Below, piece by piece: positions 2,033-58,501 of a stretch of DNA of 64,000 nt. Origin of the DNA: an uncultured virus (IMG/VR IMGVR_UViG_3300028646_000003) (lineage: Duplodnaviria; Heunggongvirae; Uroviricota; Caudoviricetes). Position 1 is the stretch's first letter, and every line of letters begins with the position of its first letter. The stretch covers positions 62,001 through 126,000 of IMG/VR virus record IMGVR_UViG_3300028646_000003; one strand, given 5' to 3'. Position numbers and translations under genes: made by a program. The notes under the pieces were generated by a model, which worked only from the letters and a program-made list of their open reading frames with translations, was not told the origin of the DNA and made no database searches.

Positions 2033-2038
2033 CTATAA

Positions 2039-2680: not shown

Positions 2681-2734
2681 TGTATTGTTGCCTCCCTTTT
2701 GTTATTGTTTTAATTTGTTGATTTTGGGTATGAT

Positions 2735-2774
2735 AAAAAGACTAAGAGTTTTTTTGAGGTTCTCTTAGTCTTTT
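2735..2774. terminator. Intrinsic terminator, probably bidirectional
   Basis: AAAAAGACTAAGAG...CTCTTAGTCTTTT inverted repeat. Confidence 0.75.
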
Positions 2775-2798
2775 ATTGTGGTTATTTTGACGTATTTT

Positions 2799-3422
2799 CT
2801 ATACAAATGAGTATCTGAGTCGAGTTTTGTAGGAATATGTCCCTGCAAGTGAAGCTGAAGGTACGTCATTTCTGAGCGATATTTTAATAAAGTTAGCTTT
2901 TGAAGTAGCTACTGCACCAGTATTTATAGCACCACTTATTTCGTAAATTTGAACAAAAGTAGTTGTGCCTAAGTTATATCTGTATGTAGAATTTCCTAAT
3001 GCTGATGTTTTAACCCATATTAATCCATCAACTAATCCTGTACTAGGTTGAGTTGCACTTACAACTGCACCACTTAAAGAAGAGTAGTCTGCACAAATAC
3101 TGAGAGCTGTTTCGTCCCACGCTGAAGTTCCTGAGTTATAAGTACCTCCTATTTGTGTGTAATTTGTCTCTGATGCAGATTCGCAACGAGCCGACGACCA
3201 TTTTTCTGAAACGACCACCGAATCGCTAATTCCTCCAGTATTTGACTTTATTGTCAATTTTGCACTTTCGCAATTGCTGACAATACTGCTACCTGCAAAA
3301 TTGTTAAAAAGATAAAATTGTAGTACTGCACTCGAACTTCCAGCATCAACAGTTCCGAAATCCGCCAAAGATGCAACACTAGAATCTGATATATTTCTCC
3401 ATGAAATTATAGGTATAGCCAT
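2799..3422 (-). CDS. Putative virion structural protein
   Basis: Ser/Thr/Gly-rich, beta-rich 207 aa ORF in the structural cluster. Confidence 0.55.
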   Translation of the reverse strand: MAIPIISWRNISDSSVASLADFGTVDAGSSSAVLQFYLFNNFAGSSIVSNCESAKLTIKSNTGGISDSVVVSEKWSSARCESASETNYTQIGGTYNSGTSAWDETALSICADYSSLSGAVVSATQPSTGLVDGLIWVKTSALGNSTYRYNLGTTTFVQIYEISGAINTGAVATSKANFIKISLRNDVPSASLAGTYSYKTRLRYSFV

Positions 3423-3480
3423 AATTAATCATCCTTCTTTCTTTTTAATTTATTTTTTTGTATAATAAAAAGAGATAGTT

Positions 3481-4968
3481 TTAAACTACCTCTTTAAATT
3501 GCTTTTCTTTTATTAAGTTTAATAGATATTTTGATTTTTCTATTTGGAAATCTGTCACTTTGTTTTTTCTATGTGGATATTTACCAAATGTTAAATTAAC
3601 TAGTTTTTTCATAATATCATCAGCTATCATTTCATTTTCATTGATTATTTTTATTTCTATAAAATCTAAAAAATAATCAACAAAATCACCTTGGTAACTA
3701 ATAAACCTACCCAATCCACTATATTCATTATTATTTTTTATTACTTTCTCTAATAGATTGTTACTAAATACATCTTTATTTAATTCATTACATATATCAT
3801 ATATAGATTTATGTGCTTTTTCTGTGTCCCAATATACATCAGAAAGTAATTTTTTATCAAATTTATCTGCAAATGTTTTATAAGTTTTATATCTTTTTAT
3901 TACTTCTTCATATAACATTCTTTGCCCGATATCTCTTAAATGGCTACAGGATGGAAGAGTATTTTTATCTTCACTAAATTTCATCATTCTTTCTAATATT
4001 TGAGTATCAGATAACTTGTATGGTGGTAATAAATATTCTACTGACAACACTAAATCTTTATTTATAATAAAATCATTAAATATATTTTTTAATTCTGTTT
4101 GCATATGTTCAAGACCATTTATAAAAACATCGTGTTCTATTGATATATATTCTACATTATGTTTTTCATATAATATTTCTTTGATTTTTCTATTTTTATT
4201 ATATGCTATTCCTAAACTAGACTTTAATTCTTTAGGGTATCCCCATACTTCACAATGAATAGTTTTATTATTTTCTAAATAAAAAGTAAAATCACTTCTG
4301 AATAATCCTTCTCCTTTTGGAAATGGAGATTGTTCTCTTTTAAATGAAATATTAAATCCTAACAAAAACATAGCTGTATAATATTCATAAACTGATCTAT
4401 TAGACATACCACTATCATCAACCAATAAATCTTCTTTTTTATATCCCATAGTTTTTTGAATATTGGTCATACCTCCATGCATTTTACTAATTGAATTACT
4501 AATAAACAAAACAGATAACATTTCTTTAGTATTAGGAAATCTATTATTTTTTGATATAAAATATTCAATAACTTTTTGAACATTTTTTAAATCATAATAT
4601 CCATCCTTTGTTATATCTAAGTCAAAAGTTTCTTTTACTTTTGTTTGAATTTCTAACGCATGTATTTCTTTTATTTTATTCTTACTACATTTACCACAAA
4701 TATCTTTATTTTCTCTTATGTGTGTTTGATATCTTTTATTAATTACTGTCCTTATACCTTTTTCTAAACAATAATCACACAAACATTGCACTTCTGTATG
4801 AGAACCTTTTGGCACATCTTCAATTTTTACTTTTATTTTAGTACCCGTGGGAATTGACCATTTCTTCCATTTCTTTTCTCTAAGTATTTCATACCCCAAT
4901 TCTTCATAATGCTTTACATTAGTTCCATTTAGTTCTACTTCAACTTCCTTTGTCAATAACATGTCCAA
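3481..4968 (-). CDS. Free-standing putative homing endonuclease (Zn-binding N-terminus, PD-(D/E)xK-like core)
   Basis: CxCDYC and CGKC motifs, FRSDF...HCEVWG nuclease-like motif; own promoter, leader and terminator. Confidence 0.6.
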   Translation of the reverse strand: MDMLLTKEVEVELNGTNVKHYEELGYEILREKKWKKWSIPTGTKIKVKIEDVPKGSHTEVQCLCDYCLEKGIRTVINKRYQTHIRENKDICGKCSKNKIKEIHALEIQTKVKETFDLDITKDGYYDLKNVQKVIEYFISKNNRFPNTKEMLSVLFISNSISKMHGGMTNIQKTMGYKKEDLLVDDSGMSNRSVYEYYTAMFLLGFNISFKREQSPFPKGEGLFRSDFTFYLENNKTIHCEVWGYPKELKSSLGIAYNKNRKIKEILYEKHNVEYISIEHDVFINGLEHMQTELKNIFNDFIINKDLVLSVEYLLPPYKLSDTQILERMMKFSEDKNTLPSCSHLRDIGQRMLYEEVIKRYKTYKTFADKFDKKLLSDVYWDTEKAHKSIYDICNELNKDVFSNNLLEKVIKNNNEYSGLGRFISYQGDFVDYFLDFIEIKIINENEMIADDIMKKLVNLTFGKYPHRKNKVTDFQIEKSKYLLNLIKEKQFKEVV

Positions 4969-12596: not shown

Positions 12597-12899
12597 TCAA
12601 TTGTATCTTTCTAAATCAATCATTCCTAATCTATTCAACAAGAAACTTTCCTCAGTAAGAAACCATTCATTAGTCACTTTCCGACTAGACATTATTTGAT
12701 GGATTATTTTCTCAAGCTTTAAATAAGATTTACACTCTATAATTCTATATAAAGAAAGTTTATCTAAATTACCATTGAACTTAAATGAACTCTTTATTTG
12801 ATTTATTCTCTTTTCTATATTTTTGCTACAGCCAATTTTTATGTATAATTTATTATTTAAACTTTGGTTTTCATTCTTTAAAATATATACTCCACTCAT
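12597..12899 (-). CDS. GIY-YIG (T5orf172-like) nuclease-domain protein
   Basis: GVYIL...YIKIGCSKNIEKRINQ...LEKIIH...EWF. Confidence 0.8.
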   Translation of the reverse strand: MSGVYILKNENQSLNNKLYIKIGCSKNIEKRINQIKSSFKFNGNLDKLSLYRIIECKSYLKLEKIIHQIMSSRKVTNEWFLTEESFLLNRLGMIDLERYN

Positions 12900-25490: not shown

Positions 25491-27071
25491 TTAATATATT
25501 TCCGAATCAATATATTTAAATGTAAATCCATGATGATGTCCACTTATCCCTTGACAAACTTTCCCTATATTAGCATTAAATAATTTAACTCCAAATATTT
25601 CTAAACTTCGTCTTTCTAATTCAATTATAGACTTAAAAACACCTAAACTTATTCCATCTTTAAATATTTCTACTTTTTTACCCAATGCTTTTTCCATTTC
25701 TTCTTTTGCATCATAATTAATCCAATCCCATATTTCAGAACCTTGCTTTAAATATTTTCTCGCAGTTTGACCTTTTATGTTAAGAATATTTCCTATATCT
25801 GTAGTTGTCATTTCACAGTTGTCATGTTTAATTTCACAAACTTTTTTAACTAAATTAATACATGCAAATTCTGAACATTGAATCCAATCAATATTACTCA
25901 AATCAAATTTAGTTATCATCTTTTCATTGTTTAATATACTATTATTAATCCATTCTAATGTACTTTTCCTACAATCTATCACTATATAATTTTCTTCTTT
26001 AATACCATTTGCTAAAGCTAATTCTTTCTTTAATCTATCATTTTCTTGTTCTTCTTTAAGCATTCTAGAATCTTTTAAATGCGTAAATCCTTCTTCATAA
26101 TGTTGCATACCATGAGTTTCTACAATATACTGTTCATTGTTATATTCAAAATAAAAATCATATTTGTATTTTTTACACCAATTAAACGAAGATTTATTCA
26201 ATTGTGTTTCAAAATCTAGCCCCAATTGTATCAAAATACTAAAAACAAATTTTTCGGGATAGGGAAATTTATCACTACAAATACAAGCTATTGAATGATG
26301 TTCATAAATTGTATTTATCCTCATTTTCTTTGATTTTACTTTTCCACAGTCAGGACATAACGGTATTATGTTTTCATTGCTTCTAGCAGTATATTTCTTA
26401 GCTTCCTCATATCCTCCTTGAAAATAAGGTATCATCCAAGGATCAGTAATAACAATCGAATTAATATTTTTGACTACAATATGTGATGAACTACAACAAC
26501 AAGAACAACCTTTTCCATCTTTTAAATTTCCTTCTGTTATCCAATACTCTTCTTTATATATTTTATCTCTAGTAGAATAATGTTCGCCACATTCAAACCC
26601 ACACTCGTTACATTTATATTTATAATATTTTAGCCCTTTTTCATCTTTCTTTGCATCAGTAATGGTGATATTTCTTTTATTATCTTTAAATATCATTCCT
26701 ATTTCTATTTTAAAATCTCCAGTTGCTTTACCTAATATTTTTCCTATTTTACATCTTTGAAAATCACAAGTAAAAACCTCATCTTCCTTATCATTGAATT
26801 CTATTAATATATAATTCTTTTTATCTCTTTCATAATCAATAATTTTAATATATCCTTCTCTGTCCTTGTATATGAAATATATTTTGAAGTTTTTTGAGTA
26901 ATCCCAATTAATACATTTATTAGATATATTTCCTCCCTTTTTACCTTTTCCTCCATGTGGTAAAATATCTAAAAATACTTTTCTAATTTTACTATTCTCA
27001 TAATCTTCTTTATTTTCTTCTTTAAATTTATTTATAATTTCTAAATACTTTTCTTGGCTAATTCTCTCCAT
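25491..27071 (-). CDS. Zn-ribbon PD-(D/E)xK (Vsr/DUF559-like) putative homing endonuclease with NUMOD1-like tail, paralog 1
   Basis: CxxC pairs, YKYDFYF...IVETHGMQHY, C-terminal IGKVCQG...HGFTFKY. Confidence 0.7.
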   Translation of the reverse strand: MERISQEKYLEIINKFKEENKEDYENSKIRKVFLDILPHGGKGKKGGNISNKCINWDYSKNFKIYFIYKDREGYIKIIDYERDKKNYILIEFNDKEDEVFTCDFQRCKIGKILGKATGDFKIEIGMIFKDNKRNITITDAKKDEKGLKYYKYKCNECGFECGEHYSTRDKIYKEEYWITEGNLKDGKGCSCCCSSSHIVVKNINSIVITDPWMIPYFQGGYEEAKKYTARSNENIIPLCPDCGKVKSKKMRINTIYEHHSIACICSDKFPYPEKFVFSILIQLGLDFETQLNKSSFNWCKKYKYDFYFEYNNEQYIVETHGMQHYEEGFTHLKDSRMLKEEQENDRLKKELALANGIKEENYIVIDCRKSTLEWINNSILNNEKMITKFDLSNIDWIQCSEFACINLVKKVCEIKHDNCEMTTTDIGNILNIKGQTARKYLKQGSEIWDWINYDAKEEMEKALGKKVEIFKDGISLGVFKSIIELERRSLEIFGVKLFNANIGKVCQGISGHHHGFTFKYIDSEIY

Positions 27072-27225
27072 TAATAAATTCCTCCAATATAATTTAATTT
27101 ATTGCTCCAATATGTATAAAAGGAAAGGAAACTCATTGGAGAGAGCTTATCAATTGAACTCGCGACTTTTCAATCTATCCTTCCATATCTATATATTATA
27201 ACATACTTTAAGAGTAATTATAACT
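27072..27225 (-). promoter_or_regulatory. Promoter plus structured 5' leader (copy B)
   Basis: TGnTATAAT -10; three-stem junction 27122-27184; loop CTCCAAT pairs with ATTGGAG at 27105-27111 and 27082-27088 (RBS). Confidence 0.7.
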
Positions 27226-34340: not shown

Positions 34341-35960
34341 TTATATTGCTTGATTTAATTTTGCATTTTCTTGAATTTCTTTTATTTGTTCTTCGGTAAG
34401 GTCTTTTAAGTATCTAAATTGATATCCTTGATGATGTTGCTGTTTCCCTTGACATACTTTAGTTATAGCACTATTAAACATTTTTATTCCAAATATTTTA
34501 AAACTATTTAATTCACATTCAGAAATGGAATTAAATATAATACCATTTTCTATACAAATTATTTTAGTACTTAACTTTTGTTTATTTCTTTCTATAGTAT
34601 TATTATTATTAATATTTTTTGAAATTTCCACAGTATAATCTGTTATTTTCAGTTCAAATCCTATTTTTAAATACGTGCAAATTGTTGTTCTGCTCATCTT
34701 CATAATTTTGGAAATTTCAGTTGTACTATGAATACCGATATTCCATAAATCACAAGCTTCTTTGATTCTACTTGACGAAACAAATTTCAAAACCTTACTC
34801 CAATCAATATTGGCTAATAAAAACAAATTATTTATATTAACATTAGATAATATATTATTTTTTATATAATCAAATCCATAGTACATACGATGGTCACAGT
34901 CAACTCTAATTACTTCAATTCCATGTTCAATAGCTAATCTATCTTTTTCATCATCAATAAATTGTGATTCTTTAGCAGTCATATTATTCTTAAAATTCCC
35001 CTTACCATGACCTAGACCCCCATCCATTTCTATAATGTATTTTTTGCCATCTTGCTCAAAATAGAAATCATAATAACCTTGTCTTCGTTTATTTTTATAT
35101 AAAAATTTACACCATTCTACTTTCTTTTCTGCTTCAAATTGAACATTTAGTTGTTCTAACACATTAAACATTATTTTATTTGGCACTGAAATACCATCCC
35201 CACATTTATTACATGAAAATCCGTTCCTTACAAAATTATCAATAGTCATTTCTTTTCTATAATAACAGTCCAAACACTTAAACCACACTTTTTTATGGCT
35301 ACCAATTGTGTATTTCCAAGTATCTTCTTCGTTTACAAAGTATTTAACTAGTTCTAGGTTCGTTTTCCATATAGAATTTATCTCTTTTACGACTTTTTGA
35401 GAATTTGGACAACAAATTTCACAACCTACTCCACGTAGAATATCTCTTTGAGAAATTTCATCTATATCTCCACATGACAAACATTTATATTTATATCCTT
35501 TAACTTTATAACTATAGTTTGATTTAATAATTAATTGTTCTAATATCAATAAATTTGAATGCTTTCCTTTGACAATATCACCTCTATTATATAAATATTC
35601 TTTATTCCTTATATTGAATAGTTTGCCTATTTGACAATTATTAATGCTCCCTGCATTTAAACTTAAGTTTTCACCATAATATTCAATTGTTATTTTTAAT
35701 TGTTTATCATATGAATAATCTATTAATCTTATATAATCCTCATGAACACCATATATAAAAAATATATAATAATTTTTATTCACTGATTCAATCCAATTTA
35801 TACTACCTTCTTTTGCTTTTCCACCTTTTCCCCATCTAGGCAAACATTCCAAAAATATCTTTTTACATTTACCACTCTCATAATCTTCTCTATTATTTTC
35901 CTTAAATTTTTCAATAATCTCCATATATTCTTCTTGATTTAATTGTCTATTTCCTTCCAT
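34341..35960 (-). CDS. Zn-ribbon PD-(D/E)xK putative homing endonuclease, paralog 2
   Basis: KVWFKCLDC, YYDFYF...IIEMDGGLGH, ITKVCQGK..HH.GYQFRY. Confidence 0.7.
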   Translation of the reverse strand: MEGNRQLNQEEYMEIIEKFKENNREDYESGKCKKIFLECLPRWGKGGKAKEGSINWIESVNKNYYIFFIYGVHEDYIRLIDYSYDKQLKITIEYYGENLSLNAGSINNCQIGKLFNIRNKEYLYNRGDIVKGKHSNLLILEQLIIKSNYSYKVKGYKYKCLSCGDIDEISQRDILRGVGCEICCPNSQKVVKEINSIWKTNLELVKYFVNEEDTWKYTIGSHKKVWFKCLDCYYRKEMTIDNFVRNGFSCNKCGDGISVPNKIMFNVLEQLNVQFEAEKKVEWCKFLYKNKRRQGYYDFYFEQDGKKYIIEMDGGLGHGKGNFKNNMTAKESQFIDDEKDRLAIEHGIEVIRVDCDHRMYYGFDYIKNNILSNVNINNLFLLANIDWSKVLKFVSSSRIKEACDLWNIGIHSTTEISKIMKMSRTTICTYLKIGFELKITDYTVEISKNINNNNTIERNKQKLSTKIICIENGIIFNSISECELNSFKIFGIKMFNSAITKVCQGKQQHHQGYQFRYLKDLTEEQIKEIQENAKLNQAI

Positions 35961-36120
35961 TCTTAAATTCCTCCAATATAATTTATTTCTCCAATATTAA
36001 ATAAAAAAGGAAGAAAGGTTAATTGGAGCTAACCCATTCAATATAACAAATCGTCGACTACTTATTATATTTATTTCTTCCTACTATATATTATAACACT
36101 CTTACGAGCAAATTATAATC
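35961..36120 (-). promoter_or_regulatory. Promoter plus structured 5' leader (copy C)
   Basis: TGTTATAAT -10; junction 36008-36082; loop CTCCAAT pairs with ATTGGAG at 35989-35995 and 35971-35977 (RBS). Confidence 0.7.
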
Positions 36121-41598: not shown

Positions 41599-43128
41599 TT
41601 AGGCTACAAATTTAAAAGTATATCCTTTATATTGTGGCTTTTTACCTCGGCATACTGCTGATATTTTACAAAAGTTTAGCTTTGCTCCAAATAATTCTTC
41701 ACTTTTTTCATCTAATTCTTGTGCTGATGGAAATATTCCTTGACTTATATTATCTTTAAATATTTCAACTGGTTTACAATTGTTTTTTGTGACTTTTCTA
41801 ATATGTTCTATTTTGAATTTTTCACTATCTTCTACAGTATAATCGCACCAATCGAGATTTTTACCTTTCTTCAAATAACTAAGTGCACATGAACTTGATA
41901 TTTTTAAAATCTTACCTATTTCCCCTGTACTTCTAATCCCACTATTCCATAATTCACAAGCTTCTTTTACTATTGGCTTATGAGATTGTTCATCAGCTTT
42001 CTTAAAATCAACTTTATTTAAATCAAAATAATAATTTAAATCGCTATTTAGTATATTATTCTTTATATTTTCATATTTTCTAATTCTAAAATAACAATTA
42101 ATCCTAATTGGTTTCTTTATTCCATGTAACATAGCCATTTCTTCTTTATAATCATCAATTGCTTTTGACTCCTTAGAACTTTGTCCACTCATTTTGTTGT
42201 CATTTTCATGCCAACCACCATCCATCTCTATAATTAAATTCATTGATGGAATGTAAAAATCATATCTTCTTTTGCCTATCCAATCCGGAGAATACTCTGG
42301 AATAAATTCTATATTTAATTGAGTTAAAATATTAAACATGAATTTTTCAGCGTAACTTTTCCCATCGCCACAATATTCACAACCAATACTTTCATTTGAA
42401 ACAAAAGAATTTACAGAAACTTTTTTCTTCTTTATTTTCCCACATTCTTTACATTTTACATATACTTTTCTATTGCTACATTCACTATGAATATAAGTAT
42501 CTTCAATATTTAAAAAGAACTTCGCCATTTCTGGATTTGTTTTAGATATGCTATTTATATCTTTTACTATAATTGTACTATTACAACAAGCACAACCTGT
42601 ATCTCGACTAAGTAGATTATGTTCTGGTATCCAAAATTCATCTTTATATTCCTTATCTCTTATTGAATAATGTTCTCCACAATCAAATCCACACGTATTG
42701 CATTTGTATTTATAAAGTTTACTTTTTCCTTTTTCATTTTTATAATCGGTTATTGTTATATCTCTTTTATTATCTTTTATTATTTGCCCAATTTTATATT
42801 TAAAATTACTTGTTTTTGTACCAACTATATTCCCTAATTTACATTGTGTAAAATCTCCTGTATTTATTTTATATATATCTTGTAGATAAGATATTTGTAG
42901 TTCTTGTCCAATACTTCTATAATTTATTATCATTACATAACCTGCAACATTTTTATCTATAAAATATACTTTATAGTCGTTGCTATTTTTCCAATCTATA
43001 CTTCCACCATTGTGATTTGATTTAGGTAATACATCTAAAAATATCTTTCTACACGTTCCACTTTCAATTAATTCATTATGTTCTAGTTCCCATTGTTCAA
43101 TAATTTGTTGATATTCCCTTTCTTCCAT
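41599..43128 (-). CDS. Zn-ribbon PD-(D/E)xK putative homing endonuclease, paralog 3 (509 aa)
   Basis: RYDFYIP...IIEMDGGWH, ISAVCRGK..Y.GYTFKF; true start ATG 43128 has a GGAGG RBS and aligns with the paralog N-termini. Confidence 0.7.
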   Translation of the reverse strand: MEEREYQQIIEQWELEHNELIESGTCRKIFLDVLPKSNHNGGSIDWKNSNDYKVYFIDKNVAGYVMIINYRSIGQELQISYLQDIYKINTGDFTQCKLGNIVGTKTSNFKYKIGQIIKDNKRDITITDYKNEKGKSKLYKYKCNTCGFDCGEHYSIRDKEYKDEFWIPEHNLLSRDTGCACCNSTIIVKDINSISKTNPEMAKFFLNIEDTYIHSECSNRKVYVKCKECGKIKKKKVSVNSFVSNESIGCEYCGDGKSYAEKFMFNILTQLNIEFIPEYSPDWIGKRRYDFYIPSMNLIIEMDGGWHENDNKMSGQSSKESKAIDDYKEEMAMLHGIKKPIRINCYFRIRKYENIKNNILNSDLNYYFDLNKVDFKKADEQSHKPIVKEACELWNSGIRSTGEIGKILKISSSCALSYLKKGKNLDWCDYTVEDSEKFKIEHIRKVTKNNCKPVEIFKDNISQGIFPSAQELDEKSEELFGAKLNFCKISAVCRGKKPQYKGYTFKFVA

Positions 43129-43268
43129 CACTAATTCCTCCGTTGAATTTATTTTCCGATTTATATGTAATATAGGAAGGGAGTTCGGAATACTCCTTTT
43201 CAATAAGGCTCATGACTTCCTTATTTATCCTACATTACAATAATACCATATTTAGGTATTATTGTAAA
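43129..43268 (-). promoter_or_regulatory. Promoter plus structured 5' leader (copy D)
   Basis: TTTACA-17-TATTAT within a perfect 13-bp IR (43235-43267); junction 43173-43232; loop TTCCGA pairs with TCGGAA (43154-43159) and the CGGAGG RBS. Confidence 0.7.
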
Positions 43269-46108: not shown

Positions 46109-47440
46109 TTACATGCCACTAAGACTAACAGTTTGAGTAGAAATTATTGAATTATCTACACTATTAGTAAATGTTATTATGAAACTTTTTGATGTGCTTA
46201 CACTAACATTTTTAACTAAGAAGTCAACATTAGATTTTCTAGTGATTGTTACTGACCCTGTCGCTACTAAAGAACTTCCAATAGAATCTAATGAATAATT
46301 TACTATCAATGTTGAATCAGCGACACCATTAATGGTTTCTTTGCAATTTGCAGTACTTGACATATAAGTTTTCAAGCTAACGCCATTAGATACTTTTCCT
46401 GTTGACCATTCACACGAATATGATATTACAGGAACAATTACATCTGTTTTAACTTCAAATGCAATATCAAATTCTTTTAAAACTCTATCTAATGTAACTT
46501 GTAGTTTCATACTACCTAAACCTATATTTACTCCACTTATTGAAATAACTCCATTTGTATTAGTAATAGTTGCTAAGGGACTATTACTTGTAACCATAAC
46601 TCCACTATAATCAATCTCAGAACCTAATTCATCTTTAATAGAATATACTAAATTTGCCGATGTTCCCTTAGTTACTTCAAATGTAGTGGGGACATTATAT
46701 GTATATGTATGTGGAATTACAGTTTTATAGTCCGCTATACCTAAAACCATATCATCTATTTCATAATTTATGGCTGTTTCTCCAAGTAATACAGCTAATA
46801 CGCCTTTAGTAGTAACCCTATCCGTTTGTGTTGCTTTCCAAGCCTGACCATTTACTATGAATCTTTGATCTATTTTTATCAGTTTTGATATATCATTATT
46901 TGAGAGTACTAATCCAAACATTCCATCTCCCTCAATTATTGAACTTCCACCAATACTTTTTATTCCCAATGTATATTTCGTATTATTCGTCACAATTGTG
47001 GGAATAGTATATAAAGTGTTATCAACTATGAATTTCAAATCATAATTACACTCTTCAAAGATACCTTCATCATATCCATGTTTTTTATCTATCTTGGATT
47101 TAATAAGATAAGTTCTTAGTGTATCAGTTTCATTGACTTTGAATTTAACATAGTCTCCACGTTTAATCTGATTAGGATATACTTGCAATTTTTCTTCCAT
47201 TTCAGTATCAGCAGTTTGTTTTCTTGATATGTCAATTACTCCTTTGATTGGAGCTTCTAAGTTATTTATAAATACATCTTTTGCATCGATTGAATTTATT
47301 AATACATCAAATCTATATATTGCATGTTCTCTAGCGTTATTATAGTCTTGTGTAATTCCAGAAATGAGTGATTCTTTGCTTGTTTGATTATTAGAAACTT
47401 TGTTTATAGTTCTATAATATTTTAAATCTTCTTTATTCAT
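46109..47440 (-). CDS. Head closure/neck protein with Ig-like C-terminus
   Basis: IKRGDYV...ECNYDLKF...IDQRFIVNGQAWK; likely start ATG 47440 just after the upstream stop. Confidence 0.55.
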   Translation of the reverse strand: MNKEDLKYYRTINKVSNNQTSKESLISGITQDYNNAREHAIYRFDVLINSIDAKDVFINNLEAPIKGVIDISRKQTADTEMEEKLQVYPNQIKRGDYVKFKVNETDTLRTYLIKSKIDKKHGYDEGIFEECNYDLKFIVDNTLYTIPTIVTNNTKYTLGIKSIGGSSIIEGDGMFGLVLSNNDISKLIKIDQRFIVNGQAWKATQTDRVTTKGVLAVLLGETAINYEIDDMVLGIADYKTVIPHTYTYNVPTTFEVTKGTSANLVYSIKDELGSEIDYSGVMVTSNSPLATITNTNGVISISGVNIGLGSMKLQVTLDRVLKEFDIAFEVKTDVIVPVISYSCEWSTGKVSNGVSLKTYMSSTANCKETINGVADSTLIVNYSLDSIGSSLVATGSVTITRKSNVDFLVKNVSVSTSKSFIITFTNSVDNSIISTQTVSLSGM

Positions 47441-47441
47441 A

Positions 47442-47912
47442 TCAATATGCCAATAAATGACCACCAGTTTTTCTATTCTTACTGTTATAGCTAACAACTT
47501 TTTTATCAAATTGTATTTGTCTATATTCAGCAACTTTTAAATAGGTAGTCCTTTCTGTATTAGAATTGGGCATTTTAATATCATCTCCAAAGTATTCTTG
47601 ATATTTTTTCAACCTGACTATTCCTTCATCAAACATTTTAATAACCATACAATCACTAATTAAATCCTTTTCCAATGGAACTAACTCAAAATTAAATGTT
47701 TCTAAATCATCATTTTTATCTAAAAAATCTACATTTTGAGAGATGGAAACAACTAATTGCAAGTCACTTACTGCATCTTCTAATAAACCCATTTCTCTTC
47801 TATTTGTAATTTCTATAAATTCTTCTTCTGTAACATTTTCATAACAAAAGAAATCTTTGTATTCTTTTATTTTACGTTCAAATCTATCTATTACTTCTGA
47901 ATAAGGCGTCAA
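47442..47912 (-). CDS. Head-tail adaptor-like protein
   Basis: MTPYSEVIDRFERKI...FNFEL...E..LI pattern; position after capsid. Confidence 0.55.
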   Translation of the reverse strand: MTPYSEVIDRFERKIKEYKDFFCYENVTEEEFIEITNRREMGLLEDAVSDLQLVVSISQNVDFLDKNDDLETFNFELVPLEKDLISDCMVIKMFDEGIVRLKKYQEYFGDDIKMPNSNTERTTYLKVAEYRQIQFDKKVVSYNSKNRKTGGHLLAY

Positions 47913-53632: not shown

Positions 53633-55527
53633 TTATATAGAATTGAAATTTACTGATGAAACAAATGTTGGTGCTGTTGACCAATCAACTTGTGGTGCTT
53701 GCTTATTAACTATTCCGTCACGTCTAAGGTTTTTTAAATGCCAAGCTAACATTACCATTGTGTAAGCTCTATCATCATGCATTTTACTCTTTTTATCAGG
53801 AGGCAGTTCATATTTATAATTTATATCATCACCTTGTCTTCTTATTGCAATTAATTCTTCTTTTGCGTTATCAATTTGCTTTAATGCCAATTCTTCGTCC
53901 CAAGATAGATTGTATTGTTTATAATCTATTGATTTTACCTTTTTCTTTTCATTCGTATCCTCATCAATTTCTTCAATCTCTTTTCCTTCCTGTGGTAGAC
54001 TTAAGTACCCTTTCATATCATAATTATCTGTAAATTCAATTAGTCCTAAATTTAATAATTCTACAAAATCATCATACATTTCTGTTTTATATTTTTTAGG
54101 TGATACTAATTTTAATTTTCCTACTGCATTCGGATAAGAATTTACATGTTCAGCACAGGCTTCTTTATCAATTAATCCCCTATGTTTATTTCCTTGTTCA
54201 TCTTCCCAGTCGTCCATAAAATAATCTGCGATTATCGGACCACCACCTCCTGAACCAGCATCAACTAGTAAACAATCTATATTCTCATAATCAGCCTTGC
54301 CTTTTCCGTTATAATTTATTAGCATTTGTTTTATCTCTTTAATTTGTTCTGGCGTTCTCATTGGAGTTTTTTTCTTTTTCCCTAAATCCACAAGACTTAC
54401 ACAGTTTTGAATTATTAATTTCCATCCAACTTGTTCATCATATATATATTCTCCTACTGATGTCGCTGAATTATCATAATCATGTGCTGGATCATATGAA
54501 ATTGCAATGTGTCTTTTTATATTTCCTTCATTAATTAATAATGGTTTTCTAACTGATGAATTTTTCATAATTACTGCACGTTTTATAGGTTGTTTATTTC
54601 CACCATCAGCATCAAAACGATTAAAATATTCTCGATTTGCTTTCTCTGAGTTTGACCTTATTTCATCATCAACTTTAGATTGTGATAACAATGGTATATT
54701 TAATTTTTTACCTTTTAATGTAGCTCCTATTATAACCTCACAATTTAAGTCAGCTACAAAATGGTCTTTACTTCCTGCAAACATTAACTTTGCCCACTCT
54801 TTATATAATGTATAAAATGCAGAATCCGTACTACTAGCAGATGAACAAAACAATAATTGATTAGGAATATTCATCGGTATAGTTTCGGTGTTTATACCAC
54901 CACCTAACTTAAACGACGAATCCTGTGTACAAAATGATTTTGTAACTGAAATATAGTTTTCACTTATGAAACCACTTTCATCATACAAATTTAAATTTGA
55001 TCTTTTCCCTCTAATATTATCTTCTTCCCCAGAAACAGTAGTAACTTGACTGTTGTTAAATAGCTTACATCTAAATCCTTGAGGAGAGTGAACAAATCCA
55101 TCATGGTTAGCACTTGCAGAAACTTCTCCTAAAAATATATCTGTTAATCCACAAAAAGATTCTATTTGTTTTTTTGCTATTGACTCCATTTTAAGTTGTC
55201 AAAGAAAGGTATCTTGGCTTTGACTTGCGGTTAATGAAAGTATAAAGCTTTGAAAGTTTGGAAATAACATCATTTTTGTCATTATAAATGGAGAACTTAA
55301 AGTTGATTTACTCAGCCTCCATTACGAGACATCAACCATAATGCAAATTGTTTGCTCCATGATTCTTGAAATGTATATTTTTGATAATCCATAAGTTCAA
55401 GTCCCAACACTAATTCTGCGAACTTTACAGGATTTCTTCTTCCCCATACAAGTATTTCATTGTATTTTAAATAACCTTCTAACTTTTTTTGAGTCAAATT
55501 ACCTTTATTTATAATTGTGATACCCAT
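53633..55527 (-). CDS. terL: Terminase large subunit, interrupted by 5-nt (55310-55314) and 9-nt (55193-55201) UGA-containing inserts; 626 aa when joined
   Basis: Joined product ...WLMSRNGG|KSTLSSPF...QSQDTFL|KMESIAK... restores Walker A; Walker B LYDESG, nuclease ISYDPA and HDDRAY motifs are intact. Confidence 0.85.
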
Positions 55528-55718
55528 AATGAATTTAATTCACCTCCTTCTTATATCAATAAAGTTTGCTTAAACGCAACAAAAGACATGTTACCATGCC
55601 TTCAGTTATTGAAACATATTTTTTTATTTAAATGCCTATTCACTATTATTATTATTATTATCATTTAATAACAATCTTAATTTATCTCTACTAATACCCA
55701 CTAATTTTGAAGCTTCGC

Positions 55719-57092
55719 TTATTCACTTATAACACTATTCAATATTTTTTGTTTTTCAATTTCTTTTTTATTTTTAATAACCTTATCAATATGCTCCATA
55801 GTGTCAATAGGTACTATTTCCTCAACCATATTATTAAAACTTATTTGGTCTTCTTTATAATTCTGCTTTTGAATAGAGTCTTGTCCATCCTTTATGTCTC
55901 CGTAGTCCAAAACATCATAATAATCTGTTTCTAAAACATCTTGTTTATAATCTACATCATTGAAAGAGCAAATCGCCTTTAATTTTCTATTTTCTTCTCT
56001 TAATTTACTGTATTCTTGTTCATAAAAATTTATTTTTTCGTTTTGGAATTTTACCATATCTATTAAATCATCATCGCCAAAATTAAGATTTTCTACAATT
56101 GCTTTTGCGGATAATCTTGCTGTTTGTAACATACCATTAGAAGTCTGAATATCAAATAAATTAACTTGTGCTTCTTTTAAATCTATTTCTTTTAACTTTT
56201 TAACCATGCCCGTTAATGTATTTGCACCGATTGTTTTATGACCACTATATAAATCACTAATCTTATTGTCTTTCGCTAAAGCCAATAAACTTTTATTTAG
56301 TTTTTCTTTAGTGTCGGTTAAGCTTTTAATAGTTCCAATATTGTCTTTTATACTTTTTATATCAGAACTTAAATTTGTTATAACATCATTTATTTTATTT
56401 TCTTGATTTTGACCTTTTATAATACTTATTATTGCACTATTTTTAAGCTCATCATTTTGACTATCTTCATCTAGCATATTTATCAACTTGGCATACATTT
56501 TTGATTTATCTTCTTCTATTTCATTCTGAAAAGGATCATATCCGATTATTCTAATAATATCTTCTTTATTTTGTTTATCTCTTACTCGTTGTTCAATTTC
56601 TTCGTCAGTAAACTCTTTAGGCTTAGATATAATTAAGCTATTTTCTTTTTCTTTGGTAGTATCATCCTCAACAATACTCATTCCTAAATCAATTTTATCT
56701 CCATGTTCAAAAGCATAACCTTTATAATTTTTAAGAGAATTTATTGTTTTTATGTATTTTTTCCATACTTCTAATCCATTTTGTACTATAGTGAAATCTT
56801 TATTCCATCCTGCTTCTGTTAATGAACTATTGTATATTCCTTCGAGATATACAAAATCCAATAACTCACATATTTTATATATTGATATTTTTATATCATT
56901 AGTTTCTTCTAAAAGTGATACATAAAAATTAGTTAAACAATCTTTACATAAAGATACTCTTCCAGTATAAGTATGTAATTTTGAACTCGATGTGTAAAAA
57001 TTATTTGTATTACTAAGTATTGTTCCACACTTAGTACATCTAGTTTTCCCTTTCATCTGCTCATCTAAATCTTTTGTCTTAAAATCTGCCAT
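55719..57092 (-). CDS. Zn-finger protein upstream of terL (possible terminase small subunit)
   Basis: CTKC...CKDC N-terminus; position. Confidence 0.5.
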   Translation of the reverse strand: MADFKTKDLDEQMKGKTRCTKCGTILSNTNNFYTSSSKLHTYTGRVSLCKDCLTNFYVSLLEETNDIKISIYKICELLDFVYLEGIYNSSLTEAGWNKDFTIVQNGLEVWKKYIKTINSLKNYKGYAFEHGDKIDLGMSIVEDDTTKEKENSLIISKPKEFTDEEIEQRVRDKQNKEDIIRIIGYDPFQNEIEEDKSKMYAKLINMLDEDSQNDELKNSAIISIIKGQNQENKINDVITNLSSDIKSIKDNIGTIKSLTDTKEKLNKSLLALAKDNKISDLYSGHKTIGANTLTGMVKKLKEIDLKEAQVNLFDIQTSNGMLQTARLSAKAIVENLNFGDDDLIDMVKFQNEKINFYEQEYSKLREENRKLKAICSFNDVDYKQDVLETDYYDVLDYGDIKDGQDSIQKQNYKEDQISFNNMVEEIVPIDTMEHIDKVIKNKKEIEKQKILNSVISE

Positions 57093-57139: not shown

Positions 57140-58501
57140 TTAATTAGCAACTTCTAATTTTTTTAATATTTTATTACTTCTATATTGTTCTTCTAACTGT
57201 TCGTCAAATGCTCCTTCAAAAAATCTAATTAAGAACTCATCAAACTGACTATGTGTATTTCTTCCATATCCATAATTTTGATGAAATATTTTATGATATT
57301 CTTCTTTCATACATTTCCCTAATGGATACCTGTAATGAATTTCTGTACATTTACATATAATTTGTTTTATTTCCATATCTGTATAATTACTTATAGTTTC
57401 ATATATAGGTAATTTTAATTCTTCTAAAGTATCTCTAACTATATTATCAAAACTATATAAGTGATGAATATGATCAAACCTTTCCCCTGTAATAATACAT
57501 TTGAAATTGCATTCTTTCATACTATCTAATTTCCATTGGTTAATATTTCTTCTTAATTCATTTTCTATATTACTAATTCCACCTTTATAATTAGGATTTA
57601 AACTACCAAATCTTGCAGAACCAAACATTGGATTATTTTCGCCTTTTGATTTTCCATTTTTAAGTCGAGTCTCACTTATTTTATTTCTCCATTCCTCAGT
57701 TTGTGCGTCATTTGTTGCTCTTAATTTACTTTCATCACTTTTATGTAAATTTAAACTATGAGCTTTATCCATAATTTGATTAATTGTTAAATGTGGGAAA
57801 AATTCATTCTTCATTTCATTATTGGTCATATCTGAATAATTATTTTGAATAATTATTACTTCTTCATCTTTCCATATGTATGAATCAGATATTGCATAGT
57901 TCTCACCTTTACATTTTTTGCATACGTTTCTAAAACCATCACTACAAGTATTATCTTTTGGAAAATATAAAAATTCTAATGGTAAATATTCATTACAGCA
58001 CTTGCATAATTTGTATCTTTTGCCTTTAATGTCTTTATATTTTATTTTGTCATAATCTTCTACTACATTATTTATTTTATATAATCCTAGTTTTTTACTC
58101 ATATGTAATACAGATTTTTCAGTACGATTAACGCTAAGCAATGGAATTATCTCTTTGATTATTAATTTATTATAATTAGCTATAATAATATCTTTATCCC
58201 TTTGACTCCATGTATCTTTCTCATTAGAACAATTTAAACACTTAGACAAATATCCATCTTTAGCTTTAGCATATAATCCAAATTCTGATACCTCTTTTTT
58301 AATATTACAACATTTGCAAACTTTATATCCATCTTTAGCATAGAACTTTTCTCTATATTTAATTTCTTGTTCTGTTTTTGCTTTATTCCTACAAGCTTTA
58401 CATGTATTTTCAAAACTTCCATTTTTGTTTTTATAAAAATTTTCCTCGTTTAATTCTTTTTCTTGTCCACATTTTTTACATTTTCTTATTTCCATAATCA
58501 A
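57140..58501 (-). CDS. HNH endonuclease with repeated Zn-finger modules
   Basis: Three CxxC...CxxC repeats, GENNPMFG segment, CIITG...HIHHLY...YHKIFH. Confidence 0.75.
   Translation of the reverse strand: MIMEIRKCKKCGQEKELNEENFYKNKNGSFENTCKACRNKAKTEQEIKYREKFYAKDGYKVCKCCNIKKEVSEFGLYAKAKDGYLSKCLNCSNEKDTWSQRDKDIIIANYNKLIIKEIIPLLSVNRTEKSVLHMSKKLGLYKINNVVEDYDKIKYKDIKGKRYKLCKCCNEYLPLEFLYFPKDNTCSDGFRNVCKKCKGENYAISDSYIWKDEEVIIIQNNYSDMTNNEMKNEFFPHLTINQIMDKAHSLNLHKSDESKLRATNDAQTEEWRNKISETRLKNGKSKGENNPMFGSARFGSLNPNYKGGISNIENELRRNINQWKLDSMKECNFKCIITGERFDHIHHLYSFDNIVRDTLEELKLPIYETISNYTDMEIKQIICKCTEIHYRYPLGKCMKEEYHKIFHQNYGYGRNTHSQFDEFLIRFFEGAFDEQLEEQYRSNKILKKLEVAN

What the first reader, a model, noticed from the sequence alone, without database searches (positions are those of the whole stretch)
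55190..55320. Terminase gene split by two micro-inserts that look like programmed ribosomal stop-hop (bypass) sites
Seen in the sequence (minus strand): site 1 reads TCT CGT AAT GGA GGC [TGAGT] AAA TCA ACT. Removing 5 nt restores Walker A, SRNGG-KST. Thirty-six codons later, site 2 reads ACC TTT CTT [TGA CAA CTT] AAA ATG GAG, and removing 9 nt gives DTFL-KMES. Both inserts begin with an in-frame UGA right after a sense codon. Site 2 has identical take-off and landing codons (CUU-stop-N3-CUU). Site 1 has a near-cognate landing (GGC to AGU) with an internal GGAGG 3 nt upstream of the landing codon. The 36-codon middle segment and all downstream motifs are intact, and the 518 aa ORF has no SD of its own. 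Established: matched codons flanking a stop define T4 gene 60 bypassing and stop-hopping, and CUU UGA C is the prfB recoding site. Inference: DNA packaging is gated by two serial UGA-dependent (RF2-sensitive) recoding events.
Basis: partly seen in the sequence, partly recalled or inferred. Interest (0 to 1): 0.92.

Follow-up and report, generated by a model that had tools for sequence, protein, structure and literature searches.

The report
Stop-led ribosome-hop gaps in phage terminase
The only DNA-packaging motor gene of this uncultured peat phage is broken by two real inserts of 5 and 9 bases, each starting with a stop codon, and about twenty similar inserts in related phages follow the same codon rules, so ribosomes most likely hop over them, a rare way of reading a gene.

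Summary
On the minus strand, terL reads GGC[TGAGT]AAA (inside Walker A) and, 36 codons later, CTT[TGACAACTT]AAA. Both inserts are real: six other IMG/VR contigs carry them, and contigs from other sequencing runs cross them without gaps. Relatives at 85-88% identity lack both inserts precisely (RNGGKST, DTFLKMES) but carry other micro-inserts elsewhere in terL.

Across about 160 fetched loci I found 20 take-off/insert combinations of 2-15 nt at 10 terL sites, including prophages of cultured Paenibacillus strains.
- 19 of 20 begin with an in-frame stop: UGA 12, UAG 5, UAA 2.
- In 20 of 20 the last three insert bases match the take-off codon at positions 2 and 3. In 13 of 20 they are a synonymous or identical codon.
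- All 8 Leu take-offs read UUY-CUN-stop.

All three terL segments are under purifying selection (dN/dS 0.07-0.10).

Best reading: programmed short-range translational bypassing (stop-hopping) yields one 626-aa TerL (confidence about 0.75). The RF2-gating idea is untested. Nothing is shown at the protein level.

The closest published case is the phiHau3 terminase (UUA-led 10-nt gaps). This scan noted similar gaps before on other DNA (e.g. e1-5693922). I class it as a new variant of a known kind.

The parts
55315..55527 (-). terL segment 1: 71 codons from ATG 55527 to the take-off codon GGC (55317-55315). It encodes the conserved N-terminus and the first half of Walker A (...LMSRNGG).
   Evidence: It aligns to the N-termini of intact relatives. 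dN/dS against the L008 lineage is 0.08.
55310..55314 (-). Coding gap 1: TGAGT. The in-frame UGA comes directly after GGC, and the last three bases AGT match GGC at codon positions 2 and 3 (wobble).
   Evidence: Absent from the L008 and L010 lineages, which read GGT GGA AAA / TCT GGA AAG. The gap-finder picks 5 nt as the best gap, 11 points ahead of 2 nt. An RNA-library contig crosses it without a gap.
55202..55309 (-). terL segment 2: 36 codons (KSTLSSPFIMTKMMLFPNFQSFILSLTASQSQDTFL) ending in the take-off codon CTT (55204-55202), which is preceded by TTT.
   Evidence: It is 36/36 aa identical to the L008 lineage despite 11 codons with silent changes. dN/dS is 0.07.
55193..55201 (-). Coding gap 2: TGACAACTT. 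The in-frame UGA (context CUU UGA C) comes after CTT, and the last three bases CTT are identical to the take-off codon.
   Evidence: Absent from the L008 and L010 lineages (TTT TTG AAA / TTT TTA AAA). The best gap is 9 nt, 11 points ahead of 6 nt.
53633..55192 (-). terL segment 3: 519 codons (KMESIAKK... to the end) plus the stop. This is the rest of the ATPase and the nuclease part.
   Evidence: It is 61% identical to the intact TerL of L028 over residues 68-593. dN/dS is 0.10. Bacillus phage terminases match at E 1e-11 to 1e-12.

Best explanation
terL of this phage is one gene read by two short translational bypasses (stop-hops).

Proposed steps, all inferred:
1. The ribosome decodes GGC (Gly71), or later CUU (Leu107), into its P site and meets UGA in the A site.
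2. Termination there is slow: the stop is weak and the context at site 2 is UGA-C.
3. The peptidyl-tRNA lets go of its codon, the mRNA slides by 5 or 9 nt, and the same tRNA re-pairs with AGU (positions 2 and 3) or CUU (all three positions).
4. Decoding resumes at the next codon (AAA at both sites).
5. The product is a single 626-aa TerL with an intact Walker A (SRNGGKST) and no extra residues.

Shown here: the inserts are real, they are exact additions, and they follow family-wide codon rules. All three segments are under purifying selection, and no other terL lies in the 130-kb record.

Inferred: the ribosomal mechanism, its efficiency, and the purpose.

On purpose, I rank tolerated indels that persist because they break homing-endonuclease or intein target sites slightly above a release-factor-sensing throttle on packaging. 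Neither idea is tested.
For: (1) The inserts are real. 6 of 6 near-identical IMG/VR contigs carry both. 18 runs hold at least half of the sampled words. X9 record 12 and X10 record 3 cross both sites with 0 gaps while differing at 27 and 23 other positions. The 151-nt contig of RNA run X22 crosses site 1 with 0 gaps, and no joints were seen.

(2) The inserts are exact. The L008 (88%) and L010 (85%) lineages read RNGGKST / RNSGKST and DTFLKMES / DTFLKLEA with no extra bases. A gap-finder scored against 40 distinct intact N-termini returns exactly 5 and 9 nt. For every other resolved insert (all but L104's two close breaks, read by eye, and L010's, which has no stop) it also returns the gap-free length, with the runner-up 7-15 points lower, mostly 11, which is one gap opening.

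(3) The family survey gives 20 take-off/insert combinations at 10 sites.
- 19 of 20 start with an in-frame stop: TGA 12, TAG 5, TAA 2. Genome-wide ORF ends are TAA 75, TAG 14, TGA 9 of 98.
- 20 of 20 have the landing second base equal to the take-off second base, and 13 of 20 have a synonymous or identical landing triplet.
- In 4-nt gaps the kind of stop follows the take-off codon: CGN with UAG-N, GAN with UGA-N.
- All 8 Leu take-offs are CTN preceded by a Phe codon, at 4 different sites. Rough chance figures are: 2e-22 for the stops, 1e-11 (6e-9 conservative) for the second base, and 2e-4 for F-L.

(4) Take-off codons track the inserts. At WGR^, 6/6 are CGN with an insert against 18/54 without. 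At RFL^G, 4/4 are CTN against 3/56. These are rare codons in this phage.

(5) Selection. dN/dS is 0.08, 0.07 and 0.10 for segments 1, 2 and 3. Gap interiors vary while their ends are kept: TGATGAGAGCTT against TGACGAAGGCTT, and TGAACTA against TGACCTA.

(6) There is only one terL locus in G000.

(7) Precedent. [quoted passage not shown] Synthetic stop-hops and the phiHau3 terminase gaps are in print.
Against: - There are no protein, ribosome-profiling or reporter data, so the mechanism rests on sequence patterns alone.
- Site 1 lands on a triplet with a first-position mismatch (GGC to AGU). Two serial hops would be costly unless each is efficient.
- No shared RNA structure was found. Shuffle z-scores range from -2.2 to +0.9 over 18 sites. 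Only WIN site 1, L076 and L105 show a hairpin around the gap.
- No gene-60-like nascent-peptide signal could be tested.
- For in-frame gaps such as site 2, stop-codon readthrough (3 extra residues) is separated from hopping only by one gap penalty in alignments.
- For 4-nt gaps in relatives, a +1 shift giving one extra residue is likewise only 7-11 points worse.
- One lineage (L010) has a gap that starts with ACG, not a stop.
- One contig (L007 = L021) pairs the 4-nt insert with a 4-nt deletion 33 nt downstream. Hopping does not explain this.
- The RNA contig may derive from DNA in the library, and site 2 had no RNA cover.
- Lineages are related, so the chance figures overstate independence.
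Confidence: 0.75

Rival explanations
1. The inserts are recoded, but not by exact hops. At site 2 the UGA is read through, adding 3 residues. At site 1 the ribosome shifts +2/-1, for example by out-of-frame decoding of AGU as Ser, adding one residue. The result is a slightly longer TerL.
For: Site 2 is in frame on both sides. The runner-up gaps of the gap-finder (2 nt at site 1, 6 nt at site 2) cost only one gap opening. The single tRNA of the phage record is tRNA-Ser(GCU), which reads AGY, the triplet at the end of gap 1 and of most UAG-N gaps.
Against: A Ser between G and K would break the GK[ST] P-loop. K is invariant and the preceding G nearly invariant in 15 diverse relatives. None of the insert-less lineages's alignment shows extra residues at these columns. 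This model also does not explain why landing triplets are synonymous with take-off codons in 13 of 20 cases, why 7-, 8- and 15-nt gaps exist, or why gap interiors drift.
Confidence: 0.1
2. terL is a decaying or dispensable gene, or it works as separate pieces. The breaks are then plain mutations in a defective or helper-dependent phage, or the fragments assemble without being joined.
For: The record is a linear fragment estimated 74% complete, so a second terminase outside it cannot be excluded. The contig L007/L021 shows that frame-damaging variants do circulate.
Against: dN/dS is 0.07-0.10 in all three segments, and the middle 36 codons are 36/36 identical in protein with 11 silent codon changes. 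The inserts are kept in strains that have diverged at 23-27 other positions. Plain mutations would not begin with a stop in 19 of 20 cases or end in a matching triplet in 20 of 20. A cut between G and K of Walker A cannot give two working pieces. PHROG scans of 46 other ORFs of the window showed no other split gene.
Confidence: 0.06
3. The 5 and 9 bases are removed or ignored at the RNA or DNA level, by an unknown micro-splicing, editing or excision step, before translation.
For: Not excluded by sequence alone. Relatives do carry self-splicing-type introns in terL, so RNA processing does act on this gene family.
Against: No known bacterial mechanism excises 2-15 nt. The rules found here are codon-anticodon rules: frame-specific stop, wobble-synonymous landing, and tRNA-box-specific take-off codons. 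The RNA-library contig X22 record 7 keeps gap 1, and no joined form was seen in 4 runs, which is weak evidence because contigs drop rare variants. Rfam found nothing in L001 or L010.
Confidence: 0.04
4. Sequencing or assembly artefact, or a non-standard genetic code.
For: None beyond the a-priori rate of indel errors in metagenome assemblies.
Against: The inserts are identical in 6 other contigs and in contigs of other runs. Related inserts occur in assemblies from different projects and in isolate genomes. TGA ends 9 and TAG 14 of 98 ORFs, and Trp is TGG. No reassignment of a stop can repair a 5-nt shift.
Confidence: 0.01

Closest known systems
Candidate translational bypassing in the large terminase of Streptomyces phage phiHau3 and two prophages. 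Antonov et al. 2023, PMC10732093: I read section 3.4, part 1 of the Discussion, and passages. The original proposal by Smith et al. 2013 is known to me only as cited there.
   Same: The same gene (terL) carries two short frame-breaking inserts whose flanks are adjacent in relatives. The first junction lies in the G|K of the P-loop-like motif (GWG|KD there, NGG|KS here). A slow-to-decode A-site codon leads each gap. Most relatives lack the inserts.
   Different: There the lead codon is the rare sense codon UUA, tied to Streptomyces bldA biology, and the gaps are 7-10 nt in 3 of 100 terminases. Here the lead is a stop codon (UGA, UAG or UAA), the gaps are 2-15 nt, and 20 of 60 distinct N-terminal sequences carry one. 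The hosts are Bacillota and the TerL family is unrelated at sequence level (no Pfam hit above threshold).
Phage T4 gene 60 50-nt bypass within the MobA homing-endonuclease cassette. I read passages of bioRxiv 10.1101/2022.08.31.505936 and of PMC5009743. Bonocora et al. 2011 is known to me as cited there.
   Same: The take-off codon is followed at once by a stop. The landing triplet matches the take-off codon and one protein is made from two frames. The setting is a phage genome rich in homing endonucleases, where such an insert can protect the target site.
   Different: Gene 60 needs a 50-nt gap, a take-off stem-loop and a nascent-peptide signal, and it travels with MobA as one element. Here the gaps are 2-15 nt, no shared structure was found, and no endonuclease gene sits next to terL in most insert-bearing lineages.
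Synthetic 'stop-hops' and hopping of ribosomes stalled at UGA in E. coli. Weiss et al. 1987 is known to me as described in passages of PMC5009743. Seidman et al. 2011 is known to me as cited in a passage of PMC6815119.
   Same: [quoted passage not shown] CAG[TGACAA]AAG in L104 is exactly the '9 nt specify one amino acid' form. Site 2 here is the same form with 3 more bases.
   Different: Those are low-level events in reporters. The 2016 review states that no natural in-frame stop-hopping was known. Here the hops would be required for an essential gene and are kept by selection.
prfB (RF2) programmed +1 frameshift at CUU UGA C. This is recalled knowledge, also described in the Discussion of PMC10732093.
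   Same: Site 2 has the identical heptamer CUU UGA C, and site 1 has GGAGG just upstream of the UGA.
   Different: The +1 frame is closed at both sites, so a prfB-type shift cannot give TerL.
Mitochondrial 'byps' of the yeast Magnusiomyces capitatus. Known to me only from a passage in PMC10732093 and a passage in PMC5009743.
   Same: Many short non-coding blocks within coding sequences are translationally skipped, with several per gene.
   Different: Those blocks are longer, lie in a mitochondrial system, and are spread over many genes. Here they were seen only in terL (46 other ORFs of the window scanned).

Membership tests
Programmed translational bypassing (hopping) | A non-coding block inside an ORF that is absent from orthologues, whose flanks are contiguous in them | tested here: met
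   the L008 and L010 lineages lack exactly the 5 and 9 nt, and the gap-free gap length scores best.
Programmed translational bypassing (hopping) | A slow-to-decode A-site codon (stop or rare codon) directly 3' of the take-off codon | tested here: met
   UGA follows at both sites. Across the family 19 of 20 begin with a stop, and the exception is ACG, at 3.2 per 1000 codons.
Programmed translational bypassing (hopping) | The landing triplet can pair with the peptidyl-tRNA of the take-off codon | tested here: met
   Site 2 is CTT/CTT. Site 1 is GGC/AGT, pairing at positions 2 and 3 only. Across the family 13 of 20 are synonymous or identical and 20 of 20 match at position 2.
Programmed translational bypassing (hopping) | One polypeptide spanning the gap is made | not testable with these tools
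   This needs mass spectrometry or reporters.
T4 gene 60-type bypass element | A take-off stem-loop that holds the take-off codon and the stop | tested here: inconclusive
   site 1 folds at -11.1 kcal/mol (z -2.2) and site 2 at -4.3 (z -0.75). No structure is shared over the 18 sites.
T4 gene 60-type bypass element | Linked homing-endonuclease gene (MobA cassette) and a nascent-peptide signal | tested here: not met
   nearly all lineages, with or without an insert, have the same ~360-aa (up to 457-aa) neighbour gene upstream. An HNH-like gene lies two genes away in the window. The peptide signal is not testable.
phiHau3-type terminase coding gaps | The gaps are led by the rare UUA codon of Streptomyces | tested here: not met
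   The lead codons here are stops. TTA is the commonest Leu codon here, at 54 per 1000.
prfB-type +1 programmed frameshift | An open +1 frame that continues the protein after CUU UGA C | tested here: not met
   the +1 frame reads GAG TAA at site 1 and reaches TAG after 7 codons at site 2.
Stop-codon reassignment (code 4, suppressor tRNA) | TGA is not used as a terminator and occurs in frame in many genes | tested here: not met
   TGA ends 9 of 98 ORFs and Trp is TGG. The only tRNA is Ser-GCU. The frame change at site 1 would remain.
Pseudogene | Relaxed selection on the fragments | tested here: not met
   dN/dS is 0.08, 0.07 and 0.10.
Large terminase subunit (TerL) | Homology to known terminases and a Walker A GK[ST] motif | tested here: met
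   tblastn matches annotated terminases of Bacillus phages at E 1e-11 to 2e-12. PHROG 5989 matches at 5e-5. Pfam TerL_ATPase matches only at 0.0013, below its cut-off. K of GK[ST] is invariant in 15 relatives. The PDB sequence search found nothing.

The most novel reading that the evidence does not exclude
A whole clade of Bacillota phages and prophages routinely uses efficient stop-hopping that needs almost no cis signals: UUY-CUN-UGA, GAR-UGA-R or GGN-CGN-UAG-N plus a matching triplet 2-15 nt downstream. On this reading the micro-gaps are not accidents. They are selected devices that spread by recombination and protect the terL hot spots (the Walker A intein site and intron sites) from homing endonucleases, while making packaging depend on release-factor activity. 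These would be the first natural stop-hops, and they would show that ordinary bacterial ribosomes can bypass at useful efficiency without gene-60-like machinery.
Probability: 0.3. Interest if true: 0.92.

Novelty: new variant of a known kind. Interest (0 to 1): 0.85.

Why it matters
Natural translational bypassing is known from very few cases: T4 gene 60 and its homologues, yeast mitochondrial byps, and the phiHau3 candidate. The 2016 review by Atkins and colleagues states that no natural in-frame stop-hop was known.

This family offers about twenty natural variants of a minimal hop site. They differ in gap length (2-15 nt), stop codon and landing match, which makes them a ready-made mutational series for working out the rules of take-off and landing. 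Three variants lie in prophages of strains held in culture collections, so the claim is directly testable.

There is also a practical consequence. Gene callers split such terminases into fragments or call them pseudogenes. That distorts phage completeness estimates and terL-based phylogenies.

Tried and rejected
- Rfam (E up to 1) on L001 and L010 gave 0 matches. The two 263- and 317-nt terL insertions of the L010 lineage are therefore called group-I-like only from their ends (exon ...T, intron ...G) and a GATATAGTC-type core that I recall as typical.
- Pfam found no TerL family above its cut-off. A profile search of PDB sequences gave 0 hits.
- blastn of the locus against cultured phages found no match.
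- Local RNA folding gave no structure shared by the sites.
- A link between inserts and an adjacent endonuclease gene is not general.
- My first N-terminal regex found nothing and was corrected.
- My first gap-finder was biased towards long gaps because its downstream window moved with the gap. It was replaced by a version with a fixed end.
- The gap-finder cannot resolve two breaks 8 codons apart (L104) or a gap without a stop (L010). I read those by eye.
- Look-ups of earlier scan notes by sequence and by place found nothing for this genome.
- Site 2 had no cover in the RNA-labelled runs X22 and X19, which is no evidence either way.
- Small word shares in wastewater, aquatic and rice-paddy RNA runs are not used for habitat.
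- A PHROG scan of 46 other window ORFs showed no second split gene. This is a coarse test, because most families there are unannotated.
Full report
WHAT IS THERE. The window is bases 62001-126000 of a 130,085-bp linear IMG/VR virus record with 27% G+C, estimated 74% complete. On the minus strand an ORF starts at 55527 and runs 71 codons to ...LMSRNGG (GGC, 55317-55315). It then stops at TGA (55314-55312). Five bases after GGC the sequence continues in another frame as KSTLSS... for exactly 36 codons, up to TTT CTT (CTT = 55204-55202). TGA CAA CTT follows (55201-55193), and then AAA ATG GAG..., the 518-aa ORF ending at 53633. I add two points. Site 2 does not change frame. The +1 frame is closed at both sites, so a prfB-type shift cannot help.

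THE INSERTS ARE REAL.
- Six other IMG/VR contigs (L002-L006, L009) are identical through both inserts.
- Contigs of 18 sequencing runs labelled peat metagenome hold at least half of the sampled words of 54900-55600.
- Of the four runs I laid, X9 record 12 and X10 record 3 cross both sites with 0 gaps while differing at 27 and 23 other positions, mostly every third base. A diverged strain therefore keeps both inserts.
- A 151-nt contig of a metatranscriptome run (X22 record 7, 55274-55424, 3 differences, 0 gaps) crosses site 1 unprocessed. No joints were seen.
- All of these are contigs, not reads, and DNA can contaminate an RNA library. Site 2 had no RNA cover.

THEY ARE EXACT ADDITIONS. Relatives at 88% (L008, L019, L020, L100) and 85% identity (L010-L016) read CGT AAT GGT GGA AAA AGT (RNGGKS) and ACG TTT TTG AAA ATG (TFLKM), without the 5 and 9 bases. 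Both lineages are themselves interrupted elsewhere. The L008 lineage has GAA[TGAG]TTA after LGLE. The L010 lineage has CGA[ACGA]AAT after WGRR, plus two larger insertions of 263 and 317 nt.

FAMILY SURVEY.
- The scans returned 18 loci, the best 80 of 173, 46 metagenome loci and 19 loci from isolate or MAG genomes.
- An N-terminal motif anchored 117 of the 145 sequences held: 58 were open for 235 codons, 58 had a stop, and 1 was too short.
- The 28 without an anchor were left out of the counts. 24 of them form the 37-45% clade (L111, L114-L133, L136, L138, L142), which one search shows as single ORFs of 614-647 aa. The others are L063, L107 and L135 (truncated) and L139 (intein-like).
- By their first 120 codons there are 60 distinct sequences, 20 with at least one micro-insert.
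- Also dropped were L007/L021 (an odd variant, see below) and L144 (an unresolved break at anchor codon 166).
- Of the 19 genome loci, 15 had the anchor. 4 of these carry one insert and 11 carry none. Of the 4 without an anchor, L152 and L155 have inteins, L164 has an intron with a LAGLIDADG gene, and L156 looks intact.

THE INSERTS, written as take-off[insert]next codon:
- WGR^: CGA[TAGC]AAA (L052/53), CGT[TAGC]AAA (L080), CGA[TAGT]AAA (L081, the same contig as L153, Paenibacillus pini JCM 16418), CGA[TAGA]AAA (L087/88). Also CGT[TAGC]AAG (L149) and CGA[TAGC]AAG (L162, P. barcinonensis CECT 7022). CGC[TAGGTTAACTAGCGT]AGA (L030/L105) forms a perfect 6-bp hairpin.
- WGRR^: CGA[ACGA]AAT (L010).
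- [RT]FL^G: CTT[TGAACTA]GGA (L072/76), CTT[TGACGGTT]GGA (L143), CTG[TGACCTA]GGA (L104).
- GI[ED]^: GAA[TGAG]TTA (L008), GAG[TGAA]TTC (L018/82), GAT[TGAC]TTT (L067/69).
- EFL^D: CTT[TGATT]GAC (L058/60/110/134), CTT[TAACTA]GAC (L150).
- DYQ^K: CAG[TGACAA]AAG (L104).
- GG^K: this window.
- PFV^M: GTG[TA]ATG (L029).
- TFL^K: this window.
- GFL^S: CTT[TGATGAGAGCTT]TCT (L104), CTT[TGACGAAGGCTT]TCT (L027).
A gap-finder tried every gap of 1-40 nt and scored the joined peptide against 40 distinct intact N-termini. It chose these same lengths wherever it could resolve them, with the runner-up 7-15 points lower.

RULES.
- (i) 19 of 20 combinations begin with an in-frame stop, including 13 of the 14 that change frame. 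Detection of those 14 does not depend on where the stop falls.
- (ii) The stops are TGA 12, TAG 5 and TAA 2, whereas the phage ends 75 of 98 ORFs with TAA. The base after UGA is C in 6 of 12.
- (iii) The last three bases of the insert, which form the landing triplet, are identical or synonymous with the take-off codon in 13 of 20. In the other 7 they agree at positions 2 and 3 (GGC/AGT, CTT/ATT, CTT/GTT, CGN/AGN). The first base is the A of the stop in 6 of the 7 and a G in L143.
- (iv) In 4-nt gaps the stop follows the take-off codon: CGN takes UAG-N (landing AGN) and GAN takes UGA-N (landing GAN).
- (v) The take-off codons are box codons that are rare in this phage. All 8 Leu take-offs are CTN (18 of 81 Leu codons per 1000 genome-wide), and each is preceded by TTT (7) or TTC (1), at four different F-L dipeptides. 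Only 12.6% of Leu residues in these sequences follow Phe.
- (vi) The take-off codon tracks the presence of an insert: 6/6 CGN against 18/54 at WGR^, and 4/4 CTN against 3/56 at RFL^G.
- (vii) 18 of 20 lie in the first ~110 codons.
They ignore shared ancestry, so I also give a conservative count of 15 events.

SELECTION AND TURNOVER. Between the window and the L008 lineage, dN/dS is 0.08, 0.07 and 0.10 for the three segments. The middle segment is 36/36 identical in protein. Where two lineages share a site, the ends of the gap are kept and its interior drifts. This is seen at GFL^S and at [RT]FL^G. In a tree of the first 180 residues, insert-bearing lineages are scattered among intact ones. All six members of the window's own clade carry different inserts. 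The window and L100 are 98% identical in protein there, yet share none. Inserts are therefore gained, lost or exchanged quickly.

ALTERNATIVES.
- Genetic code: TGA and TAG are ordinary terminators here, and no reassignment mends a 5-nt shift.
- Second terminase: none lies in the record, though the record is incomplete.
- Pseudogene or split protein: contradicted by selection, by the codon rules, and by the cut inside GK[ST].
- Readthrough or a +2 shift: these predict extra residues, which the relatives never show, and a broken P-loop.
- RNA-level removal: there is no known mechanism, and the one RNA contig is unprocessed.
- Unexplained: L007/L021, where the TGAG insert is joined by a 4-nt deletion 33 nt downstream, leaving an in-frame TGA and 11 altered residues. 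Also unexplained is the stop-less gap of L010, whose A-site codon ACG is rare.

MECHANISM (inferred). With a weak stop in the A site, the peptidyl-tRNA (Gly-GCC at site 1, a CUN-reading Leu tRNA at site 2) unpairs. The mRNA slips, and the tRNA re-pairs on the first downstream triplet that offers positions 2 and 3. Decoding then resumes. GGAGG just before site 1, and the G-rich TGG GGN before WGR^, may act like the internal Shine-Dalgarno of prfB. UUY in the E site may weaken the hold on the mRNA. Efficiency is unknown.

PURPOSE (speculative). terL in this family is a hot spot for selfish elements.
- Inteins with LAGLIDADG domains sit at GGK^S, 3 nt from gap 1 (L042, L053, L055, L066, L070, L075, L140, L152, L155).
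- Introns sit at GKR^S (L010, L029, L164).
- The window holds at least six endonuclease-like genes.
A gap that destroys a nuclease target while still being hopped would be kept, as shown for gene 60 and MobA (passage). Against this, no endonuclease gene is consistently next to terL.

WHAT IS KNOWN. The closest case in print is the phiHau3 terminase, with two 10-nt UUA-led gaps, the first at GWG|KD. It is supported by mass spectrometry of a modified construct (the gap's UUA changed to UAA, plus a Lys-to-Asn change next to the landing site) expressed in E. coli (PMC10732093). The 2016 review describes stop-hops only in synthetic constructs and says that no natural in-frame case was known (PMC5009743, passages). 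Three searches of the paper library found no report of stop-led gaps in Bacillota phage terminases: translational bypassing + terminase + phage; bypassing, take-off codon, landing, metagenom, phage; and stop-hop, stop hopping, translational hop, ribosome hopping. I did not look at supplements. This scan has noted the same kind of gap before on other DNA: e1-5693922 describes a 15-nt two-stop hairpin between Arg codons in a terminase, like my L030/L105, and e1-6089314 describes gaps in Walker A.

VERDICT. It is a new, stop-led, very short variant of translational bypassing, and cultured strains are available to test it.

Noticed in passing
L010:3255-3440 and L010:3983-4280 (also L029 about 1890-2130; L164:100-700): terL of the L010 lineage holds two insertions of about 263 and 317 nt at GKR^S and YDP^A. 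The exons end in T and the inserts end in G, and the inserts carry a GATATAGTC-like core, so they look like ORF-less group I introns. L029 has an insertion at the same GKR^S site, and L164 has one there with a LAGLIDADG gene. Rfam found no match.
   Followed up: partly
L042, L053, L055, L066, L070, L075, L140, L152, L155 (Walker A, after GGK/SGK): In-frame insertions of about 340 aa begin ALALD... and end ...THN before S/T. L042 hits LAGLIDADG_3 and Hom_end, so these are inteins at the P-loop, 3 nt from where this window has gap 1. L053 has both the WGR^ 4-nt gap and the intein.
   Followed up: partly
L007 = L021 (anchor codon 31 onwards): This is a variant of the L008 lineage. It has the TGAG insert plus a 4-nt deletion 33 nt downstream, which restores the frame but leaves the in-frame TGA and 11 altered residues. 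It may be a dead variant, a readthrough form or an assembly error.
   Followed up: partly
window 25494-27098, 34344-35996, 41602-43209, 3484-4968, 12600-12899, 57140-58501 (all minus strand): At least six homing-endonuclease-like genes lie in 64 kb. Three are paralogues (phrog_4538 with HNH or homing-endonuclease hits) placed between structural genes.
   Followed up: no
G000:C1:126182-126271 (182 bases beyond the window's end): The only tRNA in the record is tRNA-Ser(GCU). It reads AGY, the triplet that ends gap 1 (AGT) and most UAG-N gaps of relatives. This may be coincidence, since AGT is the commonest Ser codon here.
   Followed up: no
window 55719-57092 (minus strand): This 457-aa gene with Cys-rich motifs (phrog_3314, function unknown) lies directly upstream of terL in nearly all lineages, at 37% identity in L017 and L018. 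It is a candidate small terminase subunit.
   Followed up: partly
L149, L153, L162 (genome contigs): Prophages of cultured Paenibacillus strains (sp. CGMCC 1.60092, P. pini JCM 16418, P. barcinonensis CECT 7022) carry the WGR^ UAG-N gap in an otherwise open terL (560 codons walked). I did not check whether the prophages are complete.
   Followed up: partly
L071 and L074 (ORF 1309-3684), L144 (about 900-950): L071 and L074 have a 792-aa terL with an in-frame extra of about 190 aa and no Pfam hit. L144 has a break, CAT[TGAT]ATC, at anchor codon 166 that my gap-finder could not place convincingly.
   Followed up: no
window 46109-47533 and 47442-47912 (minus strand): Two ORFs of 474 and 156 aa overlap by 92 nt in different frames within the head module. 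I did not examine this for frameshifting.
   Followed up: no
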